DNA of 57,072 nt from an uncultured Bacilli bacterium. GTDB lineage: Bacteria > Bacillota_I > Bacilli_A > RF39 > UBA660. The notes under the pieces were generated by a model, which worked only from the letters and a program-made list of their open reading frames with translations, did not search any database and had not been told where the DNA came from. Both the position numbers and the translations under genes were made by a program. Shown here one piece after another: positions 6,679 through 23,480 of the stretch. How positions within the stretch are numbered: position 1 is the stretch's first letter; every line of letters starts with the position of its first letter. The stretch spans positions 1-57,072 of the forward strand of contig CANQIN010000001.1 in the NCBI GenBank assembly GCA_947623995.1, in the 5' to 3' direction.

Positions 6679-7611
6679 TTACCCTCTTTCTTCTAAATTA
6701 ACATTCTCTTCTTTTATTATATCACTAAATTCAATTTTAAATCTTTCAATTTCTTTTTTCTTAACATCTTCATAAATATTTTTAGCATTACATATAGCTT
6801 GATAAAAATGTTTTATTTTAACAGTAGATTCATTATCATAAAGCGCATAACTAAAAGCATTAGATACAATTGCAAGACAAATATCAGGATAACGACTAGC
6901 AACTTCATATACTCTTTTATATTCATCAGTCATTTCTACAATAAAACTCATAATTTTTTCTTTAACAAAATCAGTATATTCTAATTTCACCCCAATTTGT
7001 TTTTCTAATTTAGGAATGGTACCCATTAATATTCTAACTGTTGCCGGTTTATCAGTTTCCATAACATCAACTTTTTGAAAACGTCTTAAAAAAGCCCGGT
7101 CTCTTAAAATATAAGCTTCATACTCTTCAGTTGTGGTTGCCCCAATCATTTTAATACTACCACGGTCTAAACCAGCCTTTAACATATTAGCAAAATCAAT
7201 ACCTGAATTTTCATTAGTATTTTTATTAACTAAAACATGCGTTTCATCAATAAATAAAATTGTCTTTTGCTTTTCATCTAATTCTTTAACAAGCATGGCA
7301 ATCCTGCTTTCACTTTGACCTTCTGTATTAACATATCCAAGTAAAGAAGTAATATGGATTTTAATAATTTCCCAACCCTTTAAGGCATCAGGTACTAAAT
7401 TTTTTTGTATACGATAAGCAAGACCTTCCACAATAGCTGTTTTACCTATACCAGGCTTACCAACTAATAAAGCACTTTTCTCAGGCGTAAGTAAAGTTAA
7501 AATACATTGCTTTATTTCATCTTCTCTCGCAATAGCAGGGTCGGTAATATATTCGTTTTTAGTTAAGTTTTCTCCGTAGCGTTCTAACATGCTAACACTT
7601 TCATAATTCAT
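6679..7611 (-). CDS. Stand-alone AAA+ ATPase resembling the first nucleotide-binding domain of ClpA/B/C
   Basis: LERYGENLT...[20 protein letters not shown]...[20 protein letters not shown] matches the Clp NBD1 N-terminal signature. Walker B is ILFIDETH. At only 310 aa it has no second AAA module. Confidence 0.75.
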
Positions 7612-7672
7612 ATCATCATCTCTATTAGTAGTTTACCATAAAAAAAAGAAAAATTACAATAATTTTTCTAAT

Positions 7673-9244: not shown

Positions 9245-9329
9245 AGTTACCCTACCTTCTATTATTATCTTAACATTTTTTATTTTAATTTTACAAAAAA
9301 AAGAAATAGCTTTACACTACTCTTTACAA

Positions 9330-10937: not shown

Positions 10938-11187
10938 AAACAACCCTTCTTTAATAAAAATATATATTATTTCCATCAAAAAAGCAACCATAATTGGTTG
11001 CTTAGCAAATTTCTTAAATTGATAGAAGTGTGTTGTTAATAGGGTAGTTTTTATGTATGATTTAAGAATAATTTTTTTTAAGAAACTTGCTTCTCAAAAA
11101 GGTTTTCCCTTTCTGATGTGCTTTACTATACATTCGTTAATCCAAAGTTTCAAGAAAACATTTTGACAAGTTTTGGCACATTTTGTC

Positions 11188-13482
11188 TTATTCTGTCCGT
11201 AAAGCAATTACTGGATCTTTTTTACTAGCAATCTTAGCTGGAATCCAACCACCTATTAAAGTTAAGATTACACTTACAGTTATAAGAATTATAGCATGAA
11301 GTGGATTCATAACTGCCACATTTTCTAACTCGGTTAACTCAAACAAAATTGAATTAATTGGAAAAAGAAGTAACCAAGTAATAAAAATACCAATTAATCC
11401 AGAGGTCAAACCAATAATAAAGATTTCAGCATTAAAGACTCTCGTAATATCTTTTTTACGAGCTCCAAGACTTCTTAAAATACCAATCTCTTTAGTTCTT
11501 TCTAAAACGGAAATATACATAATAATCCCAATCATAATACAAGATACAATTAATGATATTGAACTAAACGCCACTAAAACAAATGTAATCGCATCCATAA
11601 TATTATTTGACAAGGAACTCATTAATTTAGCTTGGTCAACATAAAAAATTTTATCATCTTCATTTTTATCTTCATTATATTCATCTAAATATTTAACAAT
11701 CTTTTCTTTACTTGAAAAATCTTTAGGATGAATTTCAATCATCGATGGTTCTATATCATCACCTAAATAACCTAAAATATTTTCTTTTAAATCTTTACCT
11801 TCTTTAGTTGTTAAATCAAATTTCTCTCCACTCATCACGTTATAATCAGCATCTTTCTGAGCTTTTACTATATCAGATTCTTTATTCATCTTAATTAAAT
11901 AATTTTGTAAATCATTACTATAATATATTCCAGGCTCTGTCATACTAGGATAATCATCTTTTAATCTTACAATCCCCACTACATTTAAAATCAGATTATC
12001 TTTATTTTTATATAAGCTATCTAAATCTTGTTTAGGAACATAATAATTACCAAGCCTTTGATAATAATCTTTATTTAATACTAAAGTAATTTGGCTATTT
12101 AAAATATCATTAAAATTAATATTATTATCAGTTGTAAAGCCTAAGACTTCTAATAAATTTTTCGATACTTGATTTTTACTATCAACTTCTAAAATTACTT
12201 CTTCTTTACTAGTAGGCATTCGACCAGCAAGAATATCAAAGCGTTCTTCAATAACACTTTTCTTACCTTCTAATGAATGAGGATAAGTTGTGATATTTAA
12301 GTTTGTTGTGGGAATTTGTTTAACTTTTCCATCTACTTTTTGTAAGATATTTAATCCCATTGGATAGATATAATTAATTCCCATAACATCATCTTTGTTT
12401 ATTTTATCAAGATAATTTACATAATCTTTCGTTAAAACATTATTATGAACATCTTTTTCTTCAATATTCTTAATTGGAATAACGTAATCAATATTGGGAT
12501 AAGAATCATTTATACTCGTTTCTTCTTGCCTTGCCATAATATCTTCATCTAAATTCATACTTTGTTTACTAATCGTAATTGGTAAAGCACTTAATGTATT
12601 TTTTTCAAAAAGATCTATTTGTTCATCAAAACCATTTGCTAAGCTAAGAATTAAAGCAATTCCAATAATACCAATTGATGAAGCAAAAGCCGTAAGTAAA
12701 GTTCTCCCTTTTTTAGTCCTAATATTATTAAGTGATAAATGAAGTGCCGTAAAAAAGTTCATTCTAGTTTTTCTAATTTGATAAACATCTTTTTCTTCCT
12801 TTTCTTTAAGAGGATTTGAATCACTTATAATCTCGCCATCTTTCATTTCAATTACCCGGTTAGCATAAGTATTAGCTAAATCAGAATTATGAGTTACCAT
12901 AATAACTAATTTATCTTTAGCGATTTCTTTAATTAAATCCATAATTTGCATACTAGTTTTAGAATCTAAAGCTCCAGTTGGTTCATCAGCCAAAATAATA
13001 TCTGGGTCATTTGCTAAGGCTCTTGCAATAGCAACCCTTTGCATTTGACCACCCGATAATTGATTTGGTCTTTTATGCATGTGCTCTTTTAAACCAACTT
13101 TTTTTAAAACTAGAATTGCTTTTTGTTTTCTTTTCTTAGCTGAAATACCTGATAAAGTCATACCCATTTCGACATTAGATAAAATATCCATATGATTAAT
13201 TAAATTATAACTTTGAAAAATAAAACCAATACAATTATTTCGATATGAATCCCAATCCCTATCTTTAAAATATTTAGTCGATTTTTGATTGATAATTAAA
13301 TTACCATCATCGTAACGATCTAGTCCCCCAATAATATTTAAAAGAGTTGTTTTTCCAGAACCACTAGGTCCTAAAACAGCTACAAATTCATTTTTACGAA
13401 ACTTAAGATTTATCCCTTTTAAAGCATGTTGAATAAAGTCACCAGTCTTATAACTTTTTTTAATATTTTTTAATTCTAGCAT
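11188..13482 (-). CDS. Fused ABC transporter ATP-binding/permease protein (MacB/FtsX type)
   Basis: Walker A GPSGSGKTT, signature LSGGQMQRVAIARAL, Walker B ILADEPTGALD. C-terminal FtsX-like permease with a large extracytoplasmic loop. Confidence 0.9.
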   Translation of the reverse strand: MLELKNIKKSYKTGDFIQHALKGINLKFRKNEFVAVLGPSGSGKTTLLNIIGGLDRYDDGNLIINQKSTKYFKDRDWDSYRNNCIGFIFQSYNLINHMDILSNVEMGMTLSGISAKKRKQKAILVLKKVGLKEHMHKRPNQLSGGQMQRVAIARALANDPDIILADEPTGALDSKTSMQIMDLIKEIAKDKLVIMVTHNSDLANTYANRVIEMKDGEIISDSNPLKEKEEKDVYQIRKTRMNFFTALHLSLNNIRTKKGRTLLTAFASSIGIIGIALILSLANGFDEQIDLFEKNTLSALPITISKQSMNLDEDIMARQEETSINDSYPNIDYVIPIKNIEEKDVHNNVLTKDYVNYLDKINKDDVMGINYIYPMGLNILQKVDGKVKQIPTTNLNITTYPHSLEGKKSVIEERFDILAGRMPTSKEEVILEVDSKNQVSKNLLEVLGFTTDNNINFNDILNSQITLVLNKDYYQRLGNYYVPKQDLDSLYKNKDNLILNVVGIVRLKDDYPSMTEPGIYYSNDLQNYLIKMNKESDIVKAQKDADYNVMSGEKFDLTTKEGKDLKENILGYLGDDIEPSMIEIHPKDFSSKEKIVKYLDEYNEDKNEDDKIFYVDQAKLMSSLSNNIMDAITFVLVAFSSISLIVSCIMIGIIMYISVLERTKEIGILRSLGARKKDITRVFNAEIFIIGLTSGLIGIFITWLLLFPINSILFELTELENVAVMNPLHAIILITVSVILTLIGGWIPAKIASKKDPVIALRTE

Positions 13483-13628
13483 AATTTTTTTCCTTTCTTA
13501 AATTTTTAAAAAATATATGTTTTTAAACAGTTATAACACTTTCTCACCACAAGTTTATATTATAATAATCACTTGTTATCTAGTCAAACGCTTCGCAAAA
13601 ATTTTACAAAAAAATTGGTATATTTTTG

Positions 13629-13657
13629 TTGACAAAGAATAAAAATATATATATAAT
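13629..13657 (+). promoter_or_regulatory. Consensus sigma-A promoter for tRNA-Asn
   Basis: TTGACA (13629-13634), 17-nt spacer, TATAAT (13652-13657), 11 nt before the tRNA. Confidence 0.65.
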
Positions 13658-13668
13658 CTAAATGTACT

Positions 13669-13744
13669 GCTTGATTAGCTCAGTCGGTAGAGCAAACGGC
13701 TGTTAACCGTTGGGTCGTAGGTTCGAGTCCTACATCAAGCGCCA
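13669..13744 (+). tRNA. tRNA-Asn (GUU), CCA encoded
   Basis: 76-nt cloverleaf: acceptor GCTTGAT/ATCAAGC, anticodon arm AACGG-CTGTTAA-CCGTT, T-arm GTAGG-TTCGAGT-CCTAC. Confidence 0.9.
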
Positions 13745-13755
13745 TGAAGAATATT

Positions 13756-13789
13756 AACAAACCCTTTTACTTAGGGTTTGTTCTTATTT
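13756..13789 (+). terminator. Intrinsic terminator after tRNA-Asn
   Basis: AACAAACCC-ttttactta-GGGTTTGTT followed by CTTATTT. Confidence 0.6.
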
Positions 13790-13866
13790 AAAGCAATTTA
13801 ATTTGCTTGGGGTTCGTGGTATTTCGCGGACGATAAGAACTGGTTTATCCATTTCTTATTTTTTTA

Positions 13867-13900
13867 ACGAAAAAACGAAGCCATAAAGGACTCCTTTAAA
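13867..13900. repeat. Degenerate copy (C) of the terminator-containing repeat module
   Basis: acgaaaaaacgaagccataaaggactcctttaaaaaa aligns with copy B (acacaaaaatggagccataaaaggctccttcaggggg) at roughly 26 of 36 positions by hand alignment. Confidence 0.4.
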
Positions 13901-14088
13901 AAATGAATTATTTTAAATATTTTATGTGTATAGCATAAACACCATTTTTTTAATTGCTTCTTTATAACCATCTAAACTATTAATAGATTATATTTCTTCT
14001 CAATAATCATCAGTAGAAGATAATGTATAAAATCAGAAAAAAACTTTCTAACTCTTTATGTCACTTTTTGTCACTATTTGATAGTAGC

Positions 14089-15018
14089 CTAATTACTTTG
14101 TTCATTAATATAGTTTTTGAAAATATCTCTCATTTTTATGACAAGTTTAATTGTTTTAGCAATAAGTTCATCATAATTTGAATGATCATCAAAATTTAAT
14201 CCTTTTATTTTATAACTAATTCTACTAACATCATCTGATGCTTCTCTTACCCATTCAAGCTTCATGCCTAATTTTTCTTCAATTTGTTGCTTACTTTCAA
14301 ACAATTTATCAAACAAATTTCTATCATTTGTTGAATACAATCCAACTCTTATGTAACTCTCTTTATTAACTAGTTCAATCGCAATATGTGTAGATCTAAT
14401 TCCAAGTGCAACATCATACCATGCTCTAATTGAAGGTTTTCTACTGTTAAATGGCTTACCAGCTTCAATCAACTTTTCATTAAATTTATTCCAAAATTCC
14501 AGCCTTTCTGATTCGGATCTAGAAATACTATTAGATGAATTATTAAATTTAATAAATCCATTAGGTTGTTCAATTACAACAAATTGTGGTGCTGGCAATG
14601 AATCTCCTATTTTATATGCACGTAACTCCAATAAAAAGAAATTTATTTTTTCATTTGTGTTATTATTTAACCACTCAATAGCACTTCTATGTTCTTCTCT
14701 TGCATGTTTTACTATCCAAACTGCTACTTGAGCATCTAAACCAGCAGCATAAGTTATTAATTTTCCTAAATGTTCATGATTGGATTGTTCTAATTGATTT
14801 TCAATAACAACTTTCATTCCAGAAGTTTCATCCGTAGCAAATATATCGCATTGAAATCCTCCCACATTTGTTTCCGTTAAAATGTCAGTTAAATTTAAGC
14901 CCAGTATTTCATTAAGATTATCAATATTTTCTTTTTTAGATAACCAATCCGAAAAATTATATTGCTCATGTTTCCATAATTCTCTTAATGCAACTTCTTC
15001 TAATTTTCCTATATTCAT
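14089..15018 (-). CDS. DUF4268-type protein with N-terminal PD-(D/E)xK (NucS-like) nuclease-fold module
   Basis: The N-terminus (LRELWKHEQYNFSDWL...GGFQCDIFATDETSGMKVVIENQLEQSNHEHLGKLITYAAG) is the typical DUF4268-associated endonuclease-like module. C-terminal half has RLEFWNKFNEKL. Confidence 0.65.
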   Translation of the reverse strand: MNIGKLEEVALRELWKHEQYNFSDWLSKKENIDNLNEILGLNLTDILTETNVGGFQCDIFATDETSGMKVVIENQLEQSNHEHLGKLITYAAGLDAQVAVWIVKHAREEHRSAIEWLNNNTNEKINFFLLELRAYKIGDSLPAPQFVVIEQPNGFIKFNNSSNSISRSESERLEFWNKFNEKLIEAGKPFNSRKPSIRAWYDVALGIRSTHIAIELVNKESYIRVGLYSTNDRNLFDKLFESKQQIEEKLGMKLEWVREASDDVSRISYKIKGLNFDDHSNYDELIAKTIKLVIKMRDIFKNYINEQSN

Positions 15019-15125
15019 ATTTCCTCCTAAAATTATATAATTTTTCTATATTTAGACTATCATATATTAATAAATAAAACAATCTTTTTGATTGCTTTGA
15101 AAACTGTAAATAGTAATATAGAATT

Positions 15126-15180
15126 ATACAAAAATGGAGTCTTTCGGCTCCTTCAGGGGGCGGTTAGTATTCACGCACTT
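15126..15180. repeat. Copy A of the ~55-nt terminator-containing repeat module
   Basis: acaaaaatggag + hairpin (GGAGTC-tttc-GGCTCC) + ctccttcaggggg + ..gtattcac.c.c. The 12-nt and 13-nt cores are identical to copy B. On the minus strand the hairpin is followed by ATTTTTG. Confidence 0.7.
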
Positions 15181-15274
15181 CTAAGTTTATTTGAATACTT
15201 TTACATTTATTTTAAATCATTCAAAATTAGTTATTTAAAATAATAATTAAAAAAATTTAAAATTTGGGTAGTTG

Positions 15275-15309
15275 AAAAGGTAGTTAGAATTTACTTAAAA
15301 CTACCTTTT
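15275..15309 (-). terminator. Intrinsic (bidirectional-looking) terminator just after the primase-helicase gene
   Basis: 11-bp perfect stem AAAAGGTAGTT/AACTACCTTTT with a 13-nt loop and T-rich flanks, 25 nt downstream of the stop codon at 15334. Confidence 0.65.
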
Positions 15310-15333
15310 TATAAATAGATGTTGAAATATTAA

Positions 15334-17703
15334 TTATATCTTTATTATTTGTTGTTCGTTATCTTCCACTATTTCATAACCCAATTTTTCATATGTCTTT
15401 TTTCTTTTCAAAAACATATTACGAGTTTTAGCAAAATTATCATCAACATAATCATAAATTAATATTTCTTTTTTATTATCATCTTTCCTATGTAATCTTC
15501 CTGCATATTGTGTAACTCTAGTTTGTCCAGAAATAGGCATAGTCAAGAATAATACATCAAGCTTTGAATCATCGAATCCCTCACCGATATAAGAACCTGT
15601 AGCAACTATAATTTTATTACTACCAATCTCATTTATTTGATTAATTAATTCTTCATAATTTTTAAGTAATGTTTTACCTATTCCACCATAATATTTGAAA
15701 ATATTATTTGTATATTTAGATAATTTATCATAAACATAATTCATAAGTTCTAATCGTTCAGTTAAGACTAAAATATTTTTTCCATTTTCATATTCTTTTT
15801 TTATATCTTTAATAATATTTTCACTACGTATTACATCTTTTGCTATTAAATCATTAATTTCATTTAATTCATAATTATCAACATTAGGATTAGTAAAATT
15901 TAAATGACTTTTCTTCACAATTACTTTCATTGGTATATTAAGTTCTTTATTAAATTTTAAACTATCTACTTTATATCTAATATCACCGCATTGCATTTTT
16001 ATGATAGGAGTATGCCCATTTTCTCTTTCAGGCGTAGCAGAAATTCCGTAAACATATCTAGCATTTCCCGTATTTATCGCTTGTTCAAAAGTATATGCTG
16101 CTGTATGATGACACTCATCGATAATAATCAGCCCATAATTTTTTGCAATATCTAGTACTTCACCATTATTCCATAATGACTTTATACTAGCTACATCAAT
16201 CACATTAGTAATATTCTTTTTTTTACTACTTATTTCTCCAACTTCTTCTACATTTAAAAATTCTTTTATTCTATCTTTCCATTGATTAAGTAGTTGCAAT
16301 TTATTTACTAAAATTAAAGTATTAACTTTACGTTCTTCTATTATTTTACACCCTATAACAGTTTTACCAAATCCTGTGGGTGCACATAATATCCCATTGT
16401 CATACTTTAGTAAATTATCAAGTGCTAGTTGTTGTTCATCCCTTAATCTTCCATTAAAAACAATATCAATTTTATTTCCTTTAAAACGCTTATCTGTCTT
16501 TATTATTTTAACATTATTCTTTTTGCATAAACTTTCTAAATATTCATATGTTCCTCTTGGCAATTTCAAATATTTATCATCTTCTTTACTGCAATCAATT
16601 ACCATTGGAATATTATATACTGACATTCTTAACTTTTGTTTTTTGTAAAACTCAGGATTGGCAAAAGTAGCAAGTCTTCTAAAACTGTTTTTAACAACTC
16701 CACTAAGATTAGCTTTATCAATGTATACCATATCATTTAAAATTACCTTAATACTTTTAGGGTATTCTATATTATTTTTGCATTTTGCTATTACTTCTTT
16801 TTTCATATCAACTACTTCATGACCTATATCGATAGTTTCATTAGATAGTTTTTCAATTTTTTCAAAAATTTCTTTTTCAGTTAATTTATGAATAGAATTT
16901 AAATACTGTATTTGATTATCAATCTTAATAAAATTTCTATCAACAAATAATGTATTTCCATATTTAGACGGTTCATTTTGAAATGGTAATGCGATTAGAT
17001 TTCCATACCCACCTTTTGGTAAGGTATCTTGATTAGGAAACATTCTATCAAATGATGAAATAGAAATATTCGATATTTCCATCGTTTTAGATAATAATAA
17101 ACTACCTAATTTTCGTGCTGTTAATGCTTTAATATTTATATCAAAAAAAATCCAAATATGAATTCCATTTCCTGATCTACTGCGTTCTATAGCAATTGGT
17201 ATTTCATATTCATCACAGATACTAGCGAATGCTAATACGTCACTTTTAATATCATTATTAGTATTTTTATTATCAAAATCTAAAGATAGAAAGTAGCAAG
17301 TATCATTTTCTAGTAATGGATAAATTCCTATTGGATTATTTCCATACATGTGATTATAGATAACTTCCTTTGATAAAGGCTTATTTTCCCTGTACTGGCA
17401 ATTCTTACATTTTTTGCCCATCGTTTTATTGCATACACCTTGCTTCCACTCATTTACACATGCTGGGATATAATATTTAATTTTAGGATTATTTTTATCT
17501 ATTGATAAATATGGATAAACATCATCTCTACCTCTAAAGTAATTCATAAATACTTTGACTTTTTCTTCTCTAGTTAAAGATAATTCAGTGTCATTAATAA
17601 TTGGTTTATTCAACTTATCTTTTAATTCTTCAATTTCAATTTTCAATTTTTTTATTTCTAATTCTTTCTCATATATTAAATTTACAATTTCATTATTGTT
17701 CAT
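15334..17703 (-). CDS. Archaeo-eukaryotic primase (AEP/PrimPol-like) domain fused to an SF2 (DEAD/DEAH, DECH) helicase
   Basis: N-terminal coiled coil. AEP motifs: LDFD (D142/D144), SGNGIHIW (H182), SFDR (D219), and a Cys cluster CVNEW..C..(7)..C..C. Helicase motifs: APTGFGKT (~441), DECHH (~529), SATP, GRLHR. The N-terminal REEKVKVFMNYFRGRDDVY pattern resembles what I recall being called the TOTE conflict-system AEP domain. Confidence 0.8.
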   Translation of the reverse strand: MNNNEIVNLIYEKELEIKKLKIEIEELKDKLNKPIINDTELSLTREEKVKVFMNYFRGRDDVYPYLSIDKNNPKIKYYIPACVNEWKQGVCNKTMGKKCKNCQYRENKPLSKEVIYNHMYGNNPIGIYPLLENDTCYFLSLDFDNKNTNNDIKSDVLAFASICDEYEIPIAIERSRSGNGIHIWIFFDINIKALTARKLGSLLLSKTMEISNISISSFDRMFPNQDTLPKGGYGNLIALPFQNEPSKYGNTLFVDRNFIKIDNQIQYLNSIHKLTEKEIFEKIEKLSNETIDIGHEVVDMKKEVIAKCKNNIEYPKSIKVILNDMVYIDKANLSGVVKNSFRRLATFANPEFYKKQKLRMSVYNIPMVIDCSKEDDKYLKLPRGTYEYLESLCKKNNVKIIKTDKRFKGNKIDIVFNGRLRDEQQLALDNLLKYDNGILCAPTGFGKTVIGCKIIEERKVNTLILVNKLQLLNQWKDRIKEFLNVEEVGEISSKKKNITNVIDVASIKSLWNNGEVLDIAKNYGLIIIDECHHTAAYTFEQAINTGNARYVYGISATPERENGHTPIIKMQCGDIRYKVDSLKFNKELNIPMKVIVKKSHLNFTNPNVDNYELNEINDLIAKDVIRSENIIKDIKKEYENGKNILVLTERLELMNYVYDKLSKYTNNIFKYYGGIGKTLLKNYEELINQINEIGSNKIIVATGSYIGEGFDDSKLDVLFLTMPISGQTRVTQYAGRLHRKDDNKKEILIYDYVDDNFAKTRNMFLKRKKTYEKLGYEIVEDNEQQIIKI

Positions 17704-17706
17704 GAG

Positions 17707-18522
17707 TTATACCTCAACTAATTCTAATGATGAAATAAATCTCAATATATAGGTTACAACCTCTTCAATTGGTATCTCAAGCCAGTTATTTTTAGCCATA
17801 TTAATCATAGATTTAAATCTCTTATCATTAAATATAAATTCTAAACTATTTTTTACGTCAACTATATTATTTTCATCTATTAAATCATCCTTAAATACTA
17901 ATTTGTCTAAGTATTGTAAAAACCGTTTATTTTCAAAATTATTTGTATGAAATAAATAGTAAATATCAAAAATATCTTTATATCTTGTTGATGTTATGCC
18001 AAACTTTAATAGAGACTTTATTTTTTCTGAACATATTTGCTCTTTAGAATTAGCAAGTAATATAATTCTTTTAGAAAAATTGCCTGTATCAAAACACAAT
18101 TCATCTTGTTTTATGTCCATATCCTTATGAACACCAATATCTAATTTGGCAGGAAAAGAACTTCCAAAATTATCAGATATTTCAATAAATACTCTTTTTC
18201 CATCATAATCTTGATGATGAAGCTTTTTTATAGGTGCTGTTATTTTTACTTTAATATCTTTATCATTTAATTTTTCTATAAATGTTTCTATAGCTTTATC
18301 ATCTAAAGAATACCTAATAAAATCAATATCTAAATCTTGCGTTGTTCTTCTTTTATCTTTAGAAATAGCCATCATTACTACTCCACCTTTGATTGTTATA
18401 TTTTGATTAAAATTTGTGCGATTTATTTGAAACAGTATAACATCTTGACAGACTCTGGAAATAGCATTAGCATTAGAATAACCATTATCTAAATAATCTT
18501 CAAGCATTGAATTTAAATTCAT
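17707..18522 (-). CDS. abiEii: AbiEii/AbiGii-family nucleotidyltransferase toxin (type IV TA)
   Basis: ITIKGGVVMM...RRTTQDLDIDF matches the AbiEii KGG...R.T.DLD NTase motifs. About 270 aa. Start overlaps the abiEi stop (TAATG). Confidence 0.75.
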   Translation of the reverse strand: MNLNSMLEDYLDNGYSNANAISRVCQDVILFQINRTNFNQNITIKGGVVMMAISKDKRRTTQDLDIDFIRYSLDDKAIETFIEKLNDKDIKVKITAPIKKLHHQDYDGKRVFIEISDNFGSSFPAKLDIGVHKDMDIKQDELCFDTGNFSKRIILLANSKEQICSEKIKSLLKFGITSTRYKDIFDIYYLFHTNNFENKRFLQYLDKLVFKDDLIDENNIVDVKNSLEFIFNDKRFKSMINMAKNNWLEIPIEEVVTYILRFISSLELVEV

Positions 18523-19073
18523 TAAAACACCTCTTTCATGATAACATCATATAAATAATCTCCTATTTCATACTTGCTAATATATTGAGCTATTTTTTTT
18601 GTATTTAAAGAATCTTTAATTTCTCGATAATTTCCAATAATTTCTTTATAATAATCAAAGCCAATTGTATTTCTATTTCTTATTAGTTCTATTAACATTC
18701 TCTCTTTATCATATATTTGAATTTCAACACCATTTATTTTTAAAGTTGATTTACCAATTTCAAAAAATTTATCTTGATAGTATGTAACTTTAATTCTACT
18801 ATCTCTAATTTTAGTACTATTTCTTCTTAGTGCTAGATATTCCTTTTCTGGAATAACATCTGTTAAATTATGGTAATAAAAAGCACTATCCATTGTAAAT
18901 ATTGCATTAGGATATTTTTTAGTAAGTACTTCTAAATAATTTACATTTTTTTGATCACTATAAATGCCTTTTTCTATCTTAAATATCTTTCCAATTTTAA
19001 TTAACTTTTTAATTTCATAATCACTTTTATATTGTTTGATAAGTTCTTTGTAAAGTAATATCAATTCAATCAC
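18522..19073 (-). CDS. abiEi: AbiEi-family antitoxin / transcriptional regulator
   Basis: N-terminal wHTH-like LIKIGKIFKIEKGIYSD (the AbiEi_4 G.l.ri.rGiY motif), followed by a C-terminal domain. About 180 aa, immediately upstream of abiEii. The start is uncertain: GTG at 19073 lies inside AAGAGGTG, and TTG at 19064 is an alternative. Confidence 0.7.
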   Translation of the reverse strand: MIELILLYKELIKQYKSDYEIKKLIKIGKIFKIEKGIYSDQKNVNYLEVLTKKYPNAIFTMDSAFYYHNLTDVIPEKEYLALRRNSTKIRDSRIKVTYYQDKFFEIGKSTLKINGVEIQIYDKERMLIELIRNRNTIGFDYYKEIIGNYREIKDSLNTKKIAQYISKYEIGDYLYDVIMKEVF

Positions 19074-19083
19074 CTCTTGATAT

Positions 19084-19140
19084 AATTTTAAAGTAAATTA
19101 CCACAATAGTCAATCGAATGTGGCAATTTACTTTAAAATT
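19084..19140 (-). promoter_or_regulatory. abiE operon promoter overlapped by a 22-bp inverted repeat (candidate AbiEi operator)
   Basis: AATTTTAAAGTAAATTACCACA (19084-19105) and its inverted copy TGTGGCAATTTACTTTAAAATT (19119-19140) differ at 1 position and are separated by 13 nt. Minus strand reads TTGACT (19113-19108), 17 nt, TAAAAT (19090-19085). Confidence 0.6.
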
Positions 19141-19236
19141 GTTATACTTTAATCCTAAAAAATTAGAAATTTTTCTAAACTAACATAAACTTTTCTAAAT
19201 ATTAATAGATTTTAATTAAACTATTATAAATTAAAA

Positions 19237-19292
19237 TACACAAAAATGGAGCCATAAAAGGCTCCTTCAGGGGGTTTGTCGATTCACTCTCA
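19237..19292. repeat. Copy B of the terminator-containing repeat module (likely the native recG terminator)
   Basis: acaaaaatggag + GGAGCC-ataaaa-GGCTCC hairpin + ctccttcaggggg + ..gattcac.c.c. On the minus strand the hairpin is followed by ATTTTTG, about 100 nt downstream of the recG stop. Confidence 0.7.
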
Positions 19293-19369
19293 TTTAAAGG
19301 TCGTGATCATGAATCAGCGTAGCGTTTATATCTACGCTATAAACAGATTAATATATTCTAAAGATTTTG

Positions 19370-21355
19370 TCAATTATTAAATTTTAATTCTTCAATAATT
19401 TTTACATAACTTGTCACTTTTAAATATTCTTCACTATCAATCCATTCTTTAACATCATCTAATGCTTTTAATAAGACATCATAATTTTTTCTTAAATCGG
19501 CAATTTTAAACGTCATATCACCACTTTGTCTTTCTCCAAATAAATCGCCTTCACCTCTAAATTCAAAGTCTTTTTCACTAATATAAAAACCATCATTACT
19601 TTCTTCTAAAACCTTTAAACGTTTGACATCTTCATTACATATCAAGTAACAATAACTTTGCATATCATTCCGGCCAACACGGCCTCTTAACTGATGAAGT
19701 GTAGCAAGTCCAAAACGTTCAGCATTAAAAATAATCATCATTGTTGCTAATGGCACATCAACTCCCACTTCAATAACCGTAGTTGAAATTAATATTTTCG
19801 TTTGACCATTTTTAAAGTTATTCATAATTTCATCTTTTTCTTTAGCTTTTAATTTACCATGTAAAACTTCTGTTGGCACTTTACCATGAAAAGCTGAATC
19901 AAACTTTTCTTTTAAACTTAAAACGTTTTCTAAAGGCATATCTTCATTTTCCAATATCATTGGGGCCACAACATAAATTTGATGATTTAATTTTATTTCT
20001 TCTAAAACTTTATATAAAACATCCTTTAATTCACTTTCTTTTTTAACATATGTAATAATATCTTTTCTACCATTTGGTTTTTCTTTAATTATTGAAGTAT
20101 CCATATCACCATAAATAGTTAAAGCATAAGTTCTAGGAATAGGTGTTGCACTCATAAACAAAACATCTGGTTTAACACCTTTTTCTTGTAAAATATTTCT
20201 TTGATTAACTCCAAAACGATGTTGTTCATCAGTAATAACAAAACCTAAATTAGCAAAACTTAAATTTTCATTTAAGATCGCATGAGTTCCAATTAAAATA
20301 TCAACTTCATTATTGCTAACTTTTTTCATGATATCATTTTTATTTTTTTTAGTCATACTCCCAATTAATAATTCAACTTTAAGACCTAATTTTTCTAAAA
20401 GTTTTTTAATCAATTCATAATGTTGGGTTGCCAAAAGTTCTGTTGGAGCCATAAAAGCCCCTTGATAACCAGCTAGAAAATTTGCATAAAGTAAAACTGT
20501 GGCCACAATGGTTTTACCACTTCCAACATCACCTAATAATAACCTATTCATTCTTTTTTTAGAAGTAAAATCATCTAATCCTTCATTAATACTTTTTAAC
20601 TGATCATTTGTTAATTTAAAAGGTAAATTATTTATAAAATCATTTATTAAATTCTTATCAATCTTTTTAACAATCGTTTCTTCATTAACTTTTATTTTCT
20701 TTAAATATTGAACTTTAAATAAGAATAAAAATAATTCTTCATATATTAATCTATTTCTAGCAATATTTAATAATTCTTCATTATTAGGTTGATGAACTAC
20801 CTTCATAGCTTCATCTTTATTAATAAAATGATATTTTTCTAAGTATTTTTGAGGTAAATAATCTTCTAAATCAAGAGCTTCTTTTAAACCTTCTTTAATT
20901 ATTTTTTCTAAAACCGCATTTTTAATATTTTTAATACTATGATATACCGGAATAATTTGTTTTTCTAATAATTCACCAAATTTCAAATTACTCGCGGTGA
21001 ATAAGTTTTTGTGCACATCATATTTACCTGTGGCAATTATTTTTTGCCCAATCTTTAAATTAGGTCTTAAATAAGCTCGATTATAAATAACTAAAGATAT
21101 TAATTTACCATTAGTTATAACTTTCATTCTTAAAACATTTAATTTTTTTTTAATATACGCTACTCGACTAATATCACTTACAATAGCATTAATAACAACT
21201 GTATCATCACTAATTTTATTATCTAAAACTGTAGGAATAAGAATTTGATAACGATAAGGATAATATGTTAATAAGTCATCTAATGTATAAATATTTGCTT
21301 CATAAAATGATAAAAGTGTTTTATCTCCTACTCCTTTTAAATTTTGTAAATTCAT
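19370..21355 (-). CDS. recG: ATP-dependent DNA helicase RecG
   Basis: Wedge-domain N-terminus. Helicase motifs: LLGDVGSGKT, DEQHRFG, SATPIPRT, QLRGRVGR. About 660 aa. Confidence 0.93.
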   Translation of the reverse strand: MNLQNLKGVGDKTLLSFYEANIYTLDDLLTYYPYRYQILIPTVLDNKISDDTVVINAIVSDISRVAYIKKKLNVLRMKVITNGKLISLVIYNRAYLRPNLKIGQKIIATGKYDVHKNLFTASNLKFGELLEKQIIPVYHSIKNIKNAVLEKIIKEGLKEALDLEDYLPQKYLEKYHFINKDEAMKVVHQPNNEELLNIARNRLIYEELFLFLFKVQYLKKIKVNEETIVKKIDKNLINDFINNLPFKLTNDQLKSINEGLDDFTSKKRMNRLLLGDVGSGKTIVATVLLYANFLAGYQGAFMAPTELLATQHYELIKKLLEKLGLKVELLIGSMTKKNKNDIMKKVSNNEVDILIGTHAILNENLSFANLGFVITDEQHRFGVNQRNILQEKGVKPDVLFMSATPIPRTYALTIYGDMDTSIIKEKPNGRKDIITYVKKESELKDVLYKVLEEIKLNHQIYVVAPMILENEDMPLENVLSLKEKFDSAFHGKVPTEVLHGKLKAKEKDEIMNNFKNGQTKILISTTVIEVGVDVPLATMMIIFNAERFGLATLHQLRGRVGRNDMQSYCYLICNEDVKRLKVLEESNDGFYISEKDFEFRGEGDLFGERQSGDMTFKIADLRKNYDVLLKALDDVKEWIDSEEYLKVTSYVKIIEELKFNN

Positions 21356-21750
21356 ATCATCAACCTCAATGTTAAATTTTTAGATTTTATAATGTCTTCA
21401 AAATTAATAAACTCTAAACTATTATCTACTTCTACTCTATTACAAAAAAAGATTCTTCCTTTGCCATCTAAATTACCAATTAAAAAACCAATATTATCTA
21501 CTCTAATTTTATAAACAATATTATCATCTATATAAAATGGTTTAATATTATTTTCTTTAGCATACTTAGCTATTTCATAATAAAGTAAACATAAATTTTC
21601 CGCATTATTACAATCTATTTCCGTATTATTATTTCTAAATAGTAAAAAATAGTCATCAGAAAAAATTGGATACTTACTAGTAAAATTAATTAGCCATTTA
21701 AGATATTCAATATTATCATATAAATATTCTTCTTTTACTACTTCATTCAT
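21352..21750 (-). CDS. Hypothetical protein (4-nt overlap with recG start)
   Basis: 132-aa ORF translationally coupled to recG. No recognised motif. Confidence 0.5.
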   Translation of the reverse strand: MNEVVKEEYLYDNIEYLKWLINFTSKYPIFSDDYFLLFRNNNTEIDCNNAENLCLLYYEIAKYAKENNIKPFYIDDNIVYKIRVDNIGFLIGNLDGKGRIFFCNRVEVDNSLEFINFEDIIKSKNLTLRLMI

Positions 21751-21869
21751 TATAATAACACCTACTAAAAGTATATCATGTAAATTATTTAATTTAAACT
21801 AAATTTATAGGTTTTTGCCCTATACAAAAAATAGACGAAAGACATAACTTACAAATGAGGAGGGTAAAT

Positions 21870-22316
21870 ATGTTATTTGATAATACTGATTTTAATTTTG
21901 ATGTTGGTTTTTTTAAAATTCCTGGTAGTGATTTTAATATTGAAACCAGAACTGATAAATTTTTAACGCCAGAAGAAGGTTTTATGAGAGGAAACTTAGA
22001 AAAAGGAAGTTTTATTCCATATAAACAATATACTTATTTTGAATTAAAAGCTGAAAATGAACAAGAAAGAATGCTTTTAAGATTAATGGCCTTATCATTT
22101 GCTATAAATGATTTAAATTTATATTTAGATTTACATCCAGAAGATATGGAAAACTTTCAATTATTTAAAAAATACGCTAATGAATTAAATAATTTAGAAT
22201 TAGATTATGTTAAAAAATATGGTCCTATTGTAGTTAATGAAACTGACGGTGAAATGTTTAATTGGGTGAAAAATCCTTGGCCATGGGATGATAAAGGAGG
22301 TAGTATGTATGTTTAA
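21870..22316 (+). CDS. cotJB: Spore coat protein CotJB with an N-terminal CotJA-like extension
   Basis: LLRLMALSFAINDLNLYLDLHPED...YVKKYGPI...WVKNPWPWD is the CotJB signature. The N-terminal LTPEEGFMRGNLEKGSFIPYKQY resembles the CotJA C-terminal motif. Start set at the ATG at 21870, after GAGGAGGG. Confidence 0.75.
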   Translation: MLFDNTDFNFDVGFFKIPGSDFNIETRTDKFLTPEEGFMRGNLEKGSFIPYKQYTYFELKAENEQERMLLRLMALSFAINDLNLYLDLHPEDMENFQLFKKYANELNNLELDYVKKYGPIVVNETDGEMFNWVKNPWPWDDKGGSMYV

Positions 22317-22866
22317 ATATGTTAAGCACTTAAATTATCCAATCAATATTAAAAAGAAAGATTTAAAAATGGCTAAATGTTTAATTACACAATTTGGTGG
22401 TTCTAATGGCGAGCTTGCTGCCAGTCTAAGATATTTTTCCCAAAAATTTTCAATGCCTGATGAAAAAGGAAAAGCCTTATTAAATGATATTGCAACTGAA
22501 GAATTAGGTCATTGTGAAATGATTTGTACAATGGTTAGTCAGTTAACTAAAGACGCTACTGTAGCTGAATTAAAAGCTGCGGGATTAGAAAATATTTATG
22601 CTGAACATGGTAAAGGAATTTATCCAACAGATGCTTCAGGTGTACCTTTTACCGCAACTTATTTTGCTGTTACCGGAGATGTCATAGCTGACCTTTATGA
22701 AGATATGGCTGCTGAACAAAAAGCTAGAGCTGTCTATGAAAACTTAATTGACTTAACTAATGATGAAGATGTCTTAGGTGTCTTGTTATTTTTAAGACAA
22801 AGAGAAGTTGTTCACTTTAATCGTTTCAAAGAATTAAAAGATTACTATAAGAAAAAAGGCTATTAG
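22309..22866 (+). CDS. cotJC: Spore coat protein CotJC (manganese-catalase family)
   Basis: KHLNYPINIKKKDLKMAKCLITQFGGSNGELAASLRYFSQ...ELGHCEMI is the typical CotJC/Mn-catalase pattern. Start at the ATG at 22309, 9 nt after AAAGGAGG. 8-nt overlap with cotJB. Confidence 0.88.
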   Translation: MFKYVKHLNYPINIKKKDLKMAKCLITQFGGSNGELAASLRYFSQKFSMPDEKGKALLNDIATEELGHCEMICTMVSQLTKDATVAELKAAGLENIYAEHGKGIYPTDASGVPFTATYFAVTGDVIADLYEDMAAEQKARAVYENLIDLTNDEDVLGVLLFLRQREVVHFNRFKELKDYYKKKGY

Positions 22867-22873
22867 GCCTTTT

Positions 22874-23419
22874 TTATAATTTAAAATCAAAAATATCATT
22901 ATCAGTCATATCTTTACCATCAAAAAATGTTTTAACTTTAACCCCATGAATCTTCGCAATTATATTATTAGGAAATTTGCGAAGATAATTATTTAAAACT
23001 GAAGTATTCTTATTATAATAAGTAATCCCTGCCATTAATTTTTCATTAACTTTTTTTAATTCACTAAATATTTTTTTAAAATTATTTTTTTTCTCTAATT
23101 CTTCATGATCATAATAAATATTTTCTAATAAACTTTCTGCTTCAGTTAACTTTCTTTGCATTTCAAAATTACTAACTTTAGCTTTTTTTAATTCTTTTAA
23201 ATCTTTTACATAATCATTTTTATCTTTTAAAGCATCTTTAATAGCTTTATCAAGTTTTAATAATAAATCATATTTTTCTCTTAAAACTTCATCAACCATT
23301 CCTTCAACATTTTCTATTTTAGTTAAATAAAATTGCATTTTATTATAAATCATAATATGTATTATGGCATAAAGTGCACTAAAAGCTAGAATAATTAAAA
23401 TTAAACCAAATGTTCCCAT
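22874..23419 (-). CDS. lemA: LemA family protein
   Basis: N-terminal TM helix, coiled region, and C-terminal YYNKNTSVLNNYLRKFPNNIIA (LemA signature). Confidence 0.8.
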   Translation of the reverse strand: MGTFGLILIILAFSALYAIIHIMIYNKMQFYLTKIENVEGMVDEVLREKYDLLLKLDKAIKDALKDKNDYVKDLKELKKAKVSNFEMQRKLTEAESLLENIYYDHEELEKKNNFKKIFSELKKVNEKLMAGITYYNKNTSVLNNYLRKFPNNIIAKIHGVKVKTFFDGKDMTDNDIFDFKL

Positions 23420-23480
23420 ATCATTACCTCTATTCTTAAAAAATTATAACATGACTCAAGAAAAAACAAAACTATTAGTT

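What the first reader, a model, noticed from the sequence alone, without database searches (positions are those of the whole stretch)
15334..19073. Three-gene operon: AbiEi antitoxin, AbiEii nucleotidyltransferase and an AEP-primase::SF2-helicase fusion (candidate new defence module)
**Seen in the sequence:**
- abiEi and abiEii overlap by one base (TAATG).
- The abiEii stop is separated from the ATG of the 789-aa gene by only 3 nt (TAA-CTC-ATG), and a GAGGTA RBS sits inside the abiEii 3' end.
- A single promoter/operator lies upstream (19084-19140) and a strong terminator lies downstream (15275-15309).
- The 789-aa protein has intact AEP catalytic motifs (DxD at about 142-144, SGNGIH at about 177-182, a third acidic motif at about 219, and a Cys cluster) followed by an SF2 helicase with APTGFGKT and DECH.

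**Established:** AbiE is normally a self-contained two-gene type IV toxin-antitoxin abortive-infection system. AEP-helicase fusions occur in conflict systems and mobile-element replication modules.

**Inference:** The translational coupling suggests the primase-helicase is a functional third component, such as a sensor or effector acting on phage replication intermediates, and not merely a neighbour. I am not aware of a characterised AbiE variant with such a partner.
Basis: partly seen in the sequence, partly recalled or inferred. Interest (0 to 1): 0.8.

Follow-up and report, generated by a model that had tools for sequence, protein, structure and literature searches.

The report
AbiE toxin-antitoxin operon carrying an IEE-type polymerase-helicase

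Summary
**Observation:** confirmed. Three tightly packed genes lie on the minus strand. They sit behind one promoter overlapped by a 22-nt inverted repeat, and a hairpin follows the last gene.

**Identity of the 789-aa protein:** it is not a novel fusion. It aligns end to end with E. coli O157 IEE (38% identity, 558 bits). It belongs to the large Z1568-like / Pfam "AEP-TOTE" family, and all catalytic motifs are intact.

**The AbiE link is real:**
- 9 (+1) of 70 species-level IEE loci have AbiEi+AbiEii directly upstream on the same strand.
- These cases fall in at least 5 separate tree positions and use three AbiEi types.
- An Arcobacter plasmid has the same arrangement.
- The whole cassette is 93% identical in a different genomic site.

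**The link is facultative:**
- 51 of 59 close AbiEii relatives have no IEE.
- Three relatives carry independent IEE truncations with AbiE intact.
- Most IEE genes lack AbiE. Other toxin modules (HepT/MNT, PIN, HigBA, Fic, NYN) take the same upstream slot.

**Best reading:** autonomous AbiE plus an autonomous IEE-type DNA enzyme, co-transcribed under AbiEi control and moving as one unit.

**Novelty and interest:** a new variant of a known kind; interest is moderate.

The parts
19245..19279 (-). GC-rich hairpin element (CCCCCTGAAGGAGCC-loop-GGCTCC-ATTTTTG). It is terminator-like. It marks the upstream end of the DNA segment shared with a copy of the cassette at another genomic site.
   Evidence: The terminator scan finds a stem at 19265-19248. 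Homology with L003 starts at 19274. The element is conserved, with compensatory stem changes, upstream of abiEi in L001, L003, L010, L172, L173, L177 and L178.
19084..19140 (-). Promoter (-35 TTGACT at 19113-19108, -10 TAAAAT at 19090-19085) bracketed by a 22-nt inverted repeat. This is the probable AbiEi operator.
   Evidence: The architecture is conserved in AbiE relatives with and without IEE. That AbiEi autorepresses by binding inverted repeats in its promoter is established for S. agalactiae AbiE (summarised in PMC13064643). Binding here is inferred.
18522..19064 (-). abiEi antitoxin / transcriptional repressor. It is 180 aa from the TTG start; the longest ORF starts at the GTG at 19073.
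   Evidence: PADLOC AbiEi PDLC02238 at 1.3e-67, full length. PDB 6y8q and 9hlo_A (AbiGI) at 2e-10. There is no Pfam hit.
17707..18522 (-). abiEii nucleotidyltransferase toxin, 271 aa.
   Evidence: PF08843 at 6e-16 and PADLOC AbiEii at 1.7e-97. PDB 9hlo_B (AbiGII) at 2.6e-5. The nucleotidyltransferase residues G46, D63, D65, E161, K167, R180, D183 and D186 are invariant across 8 diverse AbiEii sequences.
15334..17703 (-). IEE-family protein, 789 aa. It has an N-terminal coiled coil, a Z1568-like/'AEP-TOTE' primase-polymerase domain with a 4-Cys cluster, and an XPB-like SF2 ATPase.
   Evidence: PF22548 at 3e-82 plus ResIII/DEAD. BLASTP against E. coli O157 IEE gives 38% identity over the full length, 558 bits. 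The AlphaFold model has pLDDT 89.4 and pTM 0.83. Foldseek matches XPB/TFIIH at 1e-21 and the CAPP Prim-Pol domain with target-normalised TM-score 0.75-0.80.
15275..15309 (-). Hairpin after the IEE stop codon, a probable terminator. It marks the downstream end of the shared cassette.
   Evidence: Fold energy -11.8 kcal/mol, z = -3.77. Homology with L003 and L004 ends at 15278.
15127..15161 (-). Second copy of the GC-rich hairpin element, so the cassette is flanked by direct copies.
   Evidence: Only two copies of CCCCTGAAGGA occur in 57 kb; 0.14 are expected by chance. L010 also has copies on both sides of its triad.

Best explanation
The locus is a roughly 4.0-kb mobile cassette (window 19274-15278). 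It joins two modules, each of which can stand alone.

**Module 1: a canonical AbiE type IV toxin-antitoxin / abortive-infection pair.**
- AbiEi most likely binds the inverted repeat over the promoter and represses the operon.
- AbiEii is a GTP/NTP nucleotidyltransferase that arrests growth, probably by modifying tRNA.

**Module 2: an IEE-family enzyme.**
- It combines a CAPP-like primase-polymerase domain with an XPB-like dsDNA-tracking ATPase.
- By homology with E. coli IEE, it most likely acts as a Mn2+-dependent, error-prone DNA polymerase.
- It would synapse and extend 3' overhangs (microhomology-mediated end joining) on broken, excising or replicating mobile DNA.

**How they are coupled.** The IEE gene starts 3 nt after the abiEii stop. 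It has its own Shine-Dalgarno sequence but no promoter of its own. It is therefore made only from the AbiEi-controlled, stress- or infection-responsive promoter. The coupling is at the level of co-expression and co-mobility, not an obligate three-protein mechanism.

**Shown:** gene identities, intact motifs, operon layout, recurrence and optionality of the pairing, and cassette mobility.

**Inferred:** the single transcript, AbiEi binding to the repeat, the enzymatic activities, and any role in defence.
For: **Identity**
- establish the three protein identities.
- The IEE activities are taken from PMC9943667.

**Operon layout**
-.

**Recurrence of the pairing**
- AbiEi+AbiEii lie directly upstream on the same strand in L009, L010, L039, L048, L069, L070, L071, L079 and L080. 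In L087 they lie one gene further away. That is 9 (+1) of 70 GTDB species loci with enough upstream DNA.
- These cases fall in at least 5 separate positions of a neighbour-joining tree.
- They involve three AbiEi types.
- Of the 12 AbiEii hits in these neighbourhoods, 9 sit immediately upstream on the same strand and a tenth sits one gene further. The binomial probability, at an assumed 1/12 chance per position, is about 3e-8.
- An Arcobacter plasmid has the same triad with a 6-nt gap.
- Close relatives carry the triad in different neighbourhoods.
- One 3,997-bp block at 93.4% identity is shared with L003.
- The same AbiE type (72% identity) is joined to two IEE lineages, at 85% and 61% identity.

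**Autonomy of each module**
- Of 59 AbiEii relatives with at least 2 kb of downstream DNA, 51 lack IEE, 6 have it and 2 have remnants.
- L170, L171 and L172 lose homology about 80, 475 and 190 nt into IEE respectively, with AbiE intact.
- E. coli IEE has no AbiE.
- The AbiE promoter/operator is the same in IEE-less relatives.

**Stress-linked IEE expression elsewhere**
- iee is upregulated on starvation in Aureispira (bioRxiv 10.1101/2024.01.29.577165).
Against: - No experiment shows a single transcript, AbiEi binding, or any phenotype.
- Repeated independent assembly of the same gene order with near-zero spacing is more than co-regulation strictly requires. It could reflect a direct functional interaction.
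- The toxins found upstream of IEE homologues (AbiEii, HepT, PIN, HigB, NYN, Fic) are mostly translation- or RNA-directed.
- No AbiE-linked IEE is of the nuclease-fused long form: 0 of 10 against 20 of 70. This is a trend only (Fisher p = 0.059). It hints that toxins might substitute for a fused effector.
- The tree is a crude neighbour-joining tree without support values.
- The 80 surveyed loci are the best-scoring of at least 591 matches, not a random sample.
Confidence: 0.55

Rival explanations
1. This is a true three-component system. The IEE-type PrimPol/XPB-like translocase senses or processes foreign DNA (phage replication intermediates, excising elements). The upstream toxin (AbiEii here; HepT, PIN, HigB, NYN or Fic elsewhere) is its trans-acting growth-arrest effector. 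It plays the role that fused PLD or Vsr-like nucleases play in long family members.
For: - The pairing recurs with tight spacing across phyla.
- Several unrelated toxin modules sit in the same upstream slot.
- Long family members carry C-terminal PLDc_2 or DUF559/Vsr-like nucleases, or an N-terminal PNP_UDP_1 domain.
- AbiE-linked members are all of the short form, 0 of 10.
- Pfam and RefSeq file the AEP domain under a conflict system.
Against: - AbiE pairs of the same subfamily are mostly stand-alone, and they survive IEE truncation intact.
- AbiE is experimentally self-sufficient elsewhere.
- E. coli IEE works without any toxin partner (PMC9943667).
- The short-form trend is not significant (p = 0.059 and 0.17).
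Confidence: 0.22
2. This is selfish hitch-hiking only. The toxin-antitoxin pair acts as an addiction module that stabilises whatever cassette it lies in. IEE is cargo with an unrelated role (IS excision or end joining), and being in one operon has no regulatory meaning.
For: - Toxin-antitoxin modules of many types neighbour IEE.
- The cassette is mobile and sits in an island between tRNA-Asn and recG, with another defence candidate next to it.
- AbiE stabilises plasmids.
Against: - AbiEii is concentrated in the immediately upstream, same-strand position, not scattered through the neighbourhood.
- The 3-15 nt spacing is kept across phyla.
- The AbiE pair did not prevent loss of IEE alone in L170-L172, so stabilisation of IEE specifically is weak.
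Confidence: 0.15
3. The adjacency of two unrelated genes in a defence island is coincidental.
For: - The locus lies in a variable island.
- Neighbours of IEE homologues are very diverse.
Against: - 9-10 of 70 loci, in at least 5 tree positions, with three AbiEi types, have the same order and orientation.
- The positional enrichment has P of about 3e-8.
- The cassette is conserved as a block at another site.
Confidence: 0.04
4. The primase-helicase is the replication module of a plasmid, phage or integrative element.
For: - AEP-helicase fusions often replicate mobile elements (PMC5862659).
- Homologues occur on plasmids: 98 full-length hits.
Against: - The ATPase is XPB-like SF2, not a replicative SF3, DnaB or MCM type.
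- There are no integrase, Rep, partition or phage genes in the cassette or its flanks.
- GC content is uniform.
- Only about 19 full-length homologues appear among the best 80 hits from 2.9 million viral contigs, and none has AbiE.
- Plasmid copies lie in cargo regions of large plasmids.
- E. coli IEE is not a replicase (PMC9943667).
Confidence: 0.03

Closest known systems
E. coli O157:H7 IS-excision enhancer IEE (WP_000233452.1; Z1568-like AEP family)
   Same: - The two proteins have nearly the same length (789 against 786 aa) and a collinear architecture.
- They share 38% identity end to end.
- The catalytic residues match. D142/D144, H182 (IEE H178), D219 (IEE D216) and K447 (IEE K451) are present, as are the DExH motif and conserved arginines in the region of the IEE arginine finger.
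- E. coli IEE nests inside the same tree, next to an AbiE-linked member.
   Different: - E. coli iee sits in an integrase-bearing island behind an inovirus-Gp2-like gene. It has no toxin-antitoxin pair.
- IEE's known partner, an IS3-family transposase, is not present in this 57-kb window.
- IS-excision activity has not been tested for this protein.
AbiE (AbiEi/AbiEii; also named AbiGI/AbiGII) type IV toxin-antitoxin abortive-infection system of Streptococcus agalactiae and Lactococcus
   Same: - Gene order and the 1-nt overlap are the same.
- AbiEi and AbiEii match full-length PADLOC profiles and the solved structures 6y8q and 9hlo.
- An inverted repeat lies over the promoter.
- The nucleotidyltransferase motifs are intact.
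   Different: The classical system has two genes. Here a third, 789-aa gene is appended 3 nt after abiEii within the same promoter-to-hairpin unit.
TOTE conflict systems (TPR, OB, TBP, Effector; Aravind, Iyer & Burroughs 2022, as cited in PMC12458937)
   Same: The AEP domain matches Pfam PF22548 'AEP-TOTE' at 3e-82. RefSeq names the E. coli homologue accordingly.
   Different: None of the flanking genes scanned, from 6679 to 24809, encodes a TPR, cold-shock/OB or TATA-binding protein. Only the domain family is shared. The primary review could not be read.
CRISPR-associated Prim-Pol (CAPP, Marinitoga; PDB 7nqd-7nqf, 7p9j) and archaeal/eukaryotic XPB (PDB 5tnu, 6p4o, TFIIH)
   Same: - These are the closest solved folds for the two halves.
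- CAPP gives a target-normalised TM-score of 0.75-0.80 and a sequence E-value of 4e-16.
- XPB gives a Foldseek E-value of 1e-21 and a sequence E-value of 7e-21.
   Different: - There are no CRISPR-Cas genes nearby.
- No Bax1-like nuclease partner is present.
- The two folds are fused in one chain.

Membership tests
IEE / Z1568-like AEP-SF2 family | N-terminal AEP domain with motif A (hDhD), motif B (sxH) and motif C (hD) | tested here: met
   D142, D144, H182 and D219 are invariant or near-invariant. PF22548 matches at 3e-82. The fold matches the CAPP Prim-Pol domain.
IEE / Z1568-like AEP-SF2 family | C-terminal SF2 ATPase with motif I lysine, DExH and an arginine finger | tested here: met
   G446-K447-T448, D529-E530-C531-H532 and R736/R739 are conserved. 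ResIII/DEAD Pfam hits are present. The fold is XPB-like.
IEE / Z1568-like AEP-SF2 family | Full-length collinear similarity to E. coli O157 IEE | tested here: met
   BLASTP gives 38% identity over residues 2-787 against 6-786, 558 bits.
IEE / Z1568-like AEP-SF2 family | Promotes transposase-dependent excision of IS3-family elements; Mn2+-dependent polymerase and end-joining activity | not testable with these tools
   These are biochemical and genetic properties (PMC9943667). No IS3-family transposase is found in the window, but the rest of the genome is unknown.
AbiE type IV toxin-antitoxin / abortive infection | AbiEi (winged helix-turn-helix plus C-terminal antitoxin domain) immediately upstream of AbiEii (DUF1814 nucleotidyltransferase) in one operon | tested here: met
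   PADLOC gives 1.3e-67 and 1.7e-97. PF08843 matches. PDB 6y8q and 9hlo match. The two genes overlap by 1 nt.
AbiE type IV toxin-antitoxin / abortive infection | Conserved nucleotidyltransferase catalytic motifs in AbiEii | tested here: met
   G46, D63, D65, E161, K167, R180, D183 and D186 are invariant in alignment A2.
AbiE type IV toxin-antitoxin / abortive infection | Negative autoregulation through inverted repeats in the promoter | tested here: inconclusive
   A 22-nt inverted repeat overlaps the -10 and flanks the -35, and it is conserved. Binding has not been shown.
AbiE type IV toxin-antitoxin / abortive infection | Toxicity neutralised by AbiEi; phage resistance | not testable with these tools
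   This requires expression and plaque assays.
TOTE conflict system | Operon with a TPR protein, an OB/cold-shock-domain protein and a TATA-binding-protein homologue alongside the effector | tested here: not met
   The neighbours are AbiEi, AbiEii, DUF4268, RecG and an ABC transporter (among others). No TPR, CSD or TBP hits were found.
Mobile-element replication primase-helicase | AEP fused to a replicative helicase (SF3/D5, DnaB, MCM) next to integrase, Rep or partition genes on an element | tested here: not met
   The ATPase is XPB-like SF2. There are no element genes in or next to the cassette. The family is rare in viral contigs.

The most novel reading that the evidence does not exclude
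IEE-family PrimPol/XPB-like proteins may be the constant DNA-sensing core of a widespread, unrecognised class of defence or anti-mobile-element systems. Their effector arm would be interchangeable: either a fused nuclease (PLD, Vsr-like) or a growth-arrest toxin-antitoxin module encoded immediately upstream (AbiE, HepT/MNT, PIN, HigBA, NYN, Fic). On this reading the AbiE-IEE triad is a true three-component system. The E. coli 'IS-excision enhancer' phenotype would then be a by-product of an immune function.
Probability: 0.2. Interest if true: 0.8.

Novelty: new variant of a known kind. Interest (0 to 1): 0.5.

Why it matters
**What is already known.** AbiE is one of the most widespread defence and toxin-antitoxin modules, and it is annotated everywhere as a two-gene system. 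IEE is present in roughly a sixth of complete E. coli genomes here (876 of 5,426). It drives IS excision and genome rearrangement in pathogenic E. coli, yet its natural role and regulation are unclear.

**What this locus adds.**
- IEE-type genes are repeatedly placed behind toxin-antitoxin promoters, in Bacillota, Acidobacteriota, Pseudomonadota and Campylobacterota.
- This gives a concrete, testable handle on how IEE is regulated: through toxin-antitoxin autorepression and stress.
- It also makes testable whether the family is an immune or anti-transposon effector.
- It flags a three-gene AbiE variant that current defence finders report as plain AbiE.

**If the link is only co-regulation.** The finding is still a useful annotation correction: the 'new primase-helicase' is IEE.

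Tried and rejected
**Literature**
- Searches for TOTE plus primase/AEP/helicase found nothing. The defining review (Aravind 2022) is not held, so TOTE features come second-hand from PMC12458937.
- Searches for AbiE together with primase, PrimPol or helicase found no description of this triad.
- The Kusumoto 2011 IEE paper is not held.

**Look-ups that gave nothing**
- An exact-sequence look-up of the window protein found no record.
- Rfam has no family for the boundary hairpin. The operator repeat gives only spurious sub-threshold miRNA hits.
- PHROGs shows only generic helicase and primase families and nothing for AbiE.

**Upstream genes that stayed unidentified**
- The 317-aa and 247-aa genes upstream of the 64%-identical IEE in L012 have no Pfam or PADLOC hit. 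They are not AbiEii-like by profile comparison.
- Several other upstream ORFs (L016, L024, L052, L060, L086) also have no hit.

**Other points**
- The idea that toxin-linked IEE genes specifically lack nuclease domains is only a non-significant trend.
- The first tree script timed out. The tree used is a simple neighbour-joining tree on corrected p-distances, without bootstrap.
- ORF calls in high-GC loci are my own longest-ORF calls, so negative spacings (such as -17 or -91) are probably start-codon artefacts.

Full report
**1. What is in the sequence**

Three ORFs lie head to tail on the minus strand: 18522..19073, 17707..18522 and 15334..17703.
- The first two share one base (TAATG).
- The third starts 3 nt after the abiEii stop (TAA-CTC-ATG), with GAGGTA 6 nt upstream of its ATG.

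Upstream, a 22-nt inverted repeat (19084-19105 / 19119-19140, 95% complementary) brackets the best promoter-like site in the region: -35 TTGACT, 17 nt, -10 TAAAAT. Promoter-like hits as a whole are no more frequent than in shuffled sequence. What singles this site out is its position and conservation. The CCACA-N13-TGTGG core around TTGACT recurs in eight relatives.

Downstream, an 11-bp hairpin (15309-15275) folds at -11.8 kcal/mol, z = -3.8. It has no separate U tail and was not called by the terminator scan. 'Strong terminator' is therefore an overstatement.

The AbiEi start is more likely the TTG at 19064, giving 180 aa. This matches the gene calls in relatives and the PADLOC profile alignment.

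**2. What the genes are**

AbiEi and AbiEii are ordinary AbiE proteins.
- They match full-length PADLOC profiles at 1.3e-67 and 1.7e-97.
- AbiEii matches PF08843.
- Both match the solved S. agalactiae-type structures 6y8q and 9hlo.
- The AbiEii nucleotidyltransferase residues are intact.

The 789-aa protein is not an uncharacterised fusion.
- Its N-terminal domain matches Pfam PF22548 'AEP-TOTE' at 3e-82, and its C-terminal part matches ResIII/DEAD.
- A text search led to the E. coli O157 IS-excision enhancer IEE. IEE is 786 aa, with a Z1568-like AEP domain (residues 1-290) fused to an SF2 helicase-like domain. Its key residues are D142, D144, D216, H178, K451 and R735 (PMC9943667).
- I retrieved the O157 gene (WP_000233452.1). 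It aligns with the window protein end to end at 38% identity, 558 bits.
- In a 40-sequence alignment of homologues sharing 31-66% identity with the window protein, D142, D144, H182, D219, the Cys82/91/99/102 cluster, GKT446-448 and DECH529-532 are invariant or nearly so.
- An AlphaFold model (pLDDT 89.4, pTM 0.83) matches XPB/TFIIH and archaeal XPB over the C-terminal two-thirds (E = 1e-21). It matches the CRISPR-associated Prim-Pol domain over the N-terminal part, with target-normalised TM-score 0.75-0.80.
- The family is large. It has 1,840 50%-identity clusters at E <= 1e-30. It has 98 full-length plasmid hits and occurs in 876 of 5,426 complete E. coli genomes.

**3. Is the AbiE-IEE adjacency meaningful?**

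Close relatives (85% and 94% identical IEE) keep the triad in different neighbourhoods.

DNA comparison shows a single 3,997-bp block, window 19274..15278, at 93.4% identity in L003, where both flanks are unrelated to the window's. Promoter, three genes and hairpin therefore move as one unit.

I surveyed 80 species-level loci from many phyla.
- 70 have at least 900 bp of upstream DNA.
- AbiEi+AbiEii lie directly upstream on the same strand in nine of them: L009, L010, L039, L048, L069, L070, L071, L079 and L080. In L087 they lie one ORF further away.
- The linked IEE proteins are only 37-39% identical to the window's. They occupy at least five separate places in a neighbour-joining tree, next to unlinked relatives.
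- The AbiEi partners are of three types: the 180-223-aa type seen here, AbiEi_4 (203 aa) and AbiEi_1 (272 aa).
- Of the 12 AbiEii hits anywhere in these neighbourhoods, 9 sit immediately upstream on the same strand and a tenth one gene further. The binomial probability, at an assumed 1/12 chance per position, is about 3e-8.

An Arcobacter plasmid shows the same triad with a 6-nt gap in its GenBank annotation. Within gut Bacilli, the same AbiE type (72% identical) is joined to two IEE lineages at 85% and 61% identity. The architecture is thus kept while the parts are exchanged. Chance adjacency is effectively excluded.

**4. Is IEE a required third component?**

The evidence says no.
- I examined 80 metagenomic loci encoding AbiEii proteins 46-78% identical to this one. 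Of these, 59 have at least 2 kb of downstream DNA. Six carry a full-length IEE directly downstream, two carry remnants and 51 carry none.
- In L170, L172 and L171, homology with the window stops about 80, 190 and 475 nt into the IEE gene respectively. AbiEi and AbiEii remain intact. These are three independent truncations.
- Two species-representative MAGs have a nonsense codon (L009) or a 1-nt deletion at an A6 run (L010) in IEE. Assembly error cannot be excluded.
- IEE-less AbiE relatives (L179, L180) use the same promoter/operator, so the promoter belongs to AbiE and IEE is appended to it.
- Conversely, most IEE homologues have no AbiE.
- The upstream slot also holds other toxin modules. 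These are MNT+HepT (L038, 28-nt gap), PIN_3 with a 95-aa partner (L063), RhuM-Fic and Fic (L064, L084), HigB plus a helix-turn-helix protein (Acinetobacter plasmid) and NYN (Aeromonas plasmid).
- It can also hold unrelated genes: an XhoI restriction-modification pair, a DUF4143 ATPase, DUF3800, or an integrase.

**5. Mechanism**

The best-supported reading is two autonomous modules fused into one transcription and mobility unit.

By analogy with studied AbiE systems (summarised in PMC13064643):
- AbiEi represses the promoter through the inverted repeat and neutralises AbiEii.
- AbiEii is a nucleotidyltransferase that arrests growth, probably by way of tRNA.

By homology with E. coli IEE (PMC9943667):
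- The third protein is a Mn2+-dependent, error-prone polymerase.
- Its SF2 domain grips duplex DNA and allows synapsis and extension of 3' overhangs.
- The XPB-like fold fits a dsDNA-tracking ATPase better than a classical unwinding helicase. This agrees with the reported lack of unwinding by IEE.

The scan found no promoter-like site just upstream of the IEE start. IEE would therefore be expressed only when the AbiE promoter fires. Starvation-induced iee transcription in Aureispira shows that stress-linked control of IEE exists elsewhere. Everything in this section beyond identity and layout is inference.

**6. The more interesting alternative**

Long members of the family carry C-terminal PLD-like or DUF559/Vsr-like nucleases, or N-terminal PNP_UDP_1 or FMN-reductase domains. 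That is a pattern typical of conflict-system proteins.
- None of the 10 AbiE-linked IEE proteins is a long form, against 20 of 70 others (p = 0.059).
- The upstream toxins are mostly translation- or RNA-directed.

This is compatible with an 'interchangeable effector' model, in which the toxin module is the trans-acting arm of an IEE-type DNA sensor. I give it about 0.2.

**7. What it is not**
- It is not a TOTE system. None of the flanking genes scanned, from 6679 to 24809, encodes a TPR, OB/cold-shock or TBP protein.
- It is not a replication module. The ATPase is XPB-like SF2. No integrase, Rep or partition genes are present. GC content is uniform. Only about 19 full-length homologues appear among the top 80 hits from 2.9 million viral contigs, and none has AbiE.

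**8. Context**

The cassette lies in a small variable island between recG (19370-21355) and tRNA-Asn (13669-13744). A DUF4268 / PADLOC PDC-S11 candidate defence gene is also in this island. The host is a roughly 25% GC gut Bacillota lineage that reads TGA as a stop codon.

**9. Verdict**

- **Novelty:** a new variant of a known kind. It is an AbiE operon extended by an IEE-family gene. The arrangement recurs, and I could not find it described in the library searched.
- **Interest:** moderate, 0.5.

Noticed in passing
window 19245-19279 and 15127-15161 (minus strand); also L010:4438 and L010:8550, and L001, L003, L172, L173, L177, L178 upstream of abiEi: A roughly 35-nt GC-rich hairpin element (CCCCCTGAAGGAGCC-loop-GGCTCC-ATTTTTG) flanks the cassette as a direct repeat, both in this window and in L010. 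The stems differ by compensatory changes (GGAGCC/GGCTCC against GGACCTC/GAGGTCC). Only 2 copies occur in 57 kb, where 0.14 are expected. There is no Rfam match. It may be a terminator or insulator that also serves as a junction for cassette exchange.
   Followed up: partly
window 14089-15018 (minus strand): A DUF4268 protein (PF14088 at 3.9e-28) matches the PADLOC candidate defence family PDC-S11 at 6e-108 and phrog_27742. It lies just downstream of the cassette and is preceded by the second hairpin element. The same gene lies elsewhere in the island in L001.
   Followed up: partly
window 13669-13744 (plus strand): A tRNA-Asn(GTT) gene borders the variable island (DUF4268 gene plus AbiE-IEE cassette). 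The other border is recG. This looks like a tRNA-adjacent integration hot spot. In the relative L001 the same place holds NERD, DUF4268 and AbiE-IEE genes, a type I restriction-modification system and an integrase fragment.
   Followed up: partly
L050, L018, L015, L032 (PLDc_2); L059, L046 (DUF559/MTES_1575); P0148 (PNP_UDP_1); P0142 (FMN_red): About a quarter of IEE-family proteins are long forms. They carry a fused C-terminal PLD-like or Vsr-like nuclease, or an N-terminal phosphorylase or flavin-reductase domain. This points to a conflict-system role for the family as a whole.
   Followed up: partly
L170:~4900, L172:~5010, L171:~5300; L009:6001-8370; L010:~6288: IEE decays repeatedly while AbiE stays intact. 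There are three different truncation points, one in-frame TGA (at a position where the window protein has glycine) and one 1-nt deletion at an A6 run. The last two could be assembly errors.
   Followed up: partly
L003:12428-12516 and L003:19857-21337: Right after the IEE hairpin, L003 has a sequence resembling the abiEi ribosome-binding site and start (TATATCAAAAGGTGATTGAATTGATA). This may be a remnant of a tandem cassette. The same contig also carries a second, IEE-less AbiE pair (AbiEi_4 plus AbiEii).
   Followed up: no
L035, L038, L066, L071, L073, L074, L076 downstream of IEE; L027, L036, L052 upstream: A recurrent pair of unknown genes sits next to IEE homologues in 7-8 loci. One is a 120-170-aa protein with a weak CcbP-like Pfam hit. 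The other is a 380-440-aa protein with no Pfam hit. This is the second most frequent neighbour after AbiE.
   Followed up: partly
L012:59-1833: The closest AbiE-less relative of this IEE (64% identical, gut Bacilli) has two upstream same-strand genes (247 and 317 aa). They have no Pfam or PADLOC hit and no AbiEii-like profile signal. This may be an unrecognised partner module.
   Followed up: partly
window 19280-19360 (minus strand) and L010:4330-4440: The roughly 100 nt between the recG stop and the hairpin element contain a further stem-loop and a conserved stretch. Both are shared with L010, with compensatory stem changes. In L010 a promoter-like site precedes this region. It may be a small RNA or a leader. 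There is no Rfam hit.
   Followed up: no
window 32430-32622 (minus strand); 21855-22866 (plus strand): There is a T-box leader (Rfam score 94.9 bits). A CotJB gene and a Mn-catalase (CotJC-like) gene form a spore-coat pair. Spore genes sit oddly with the 'uncultured Tenericutes' label carried by the closest genome records.
   Followed up: no
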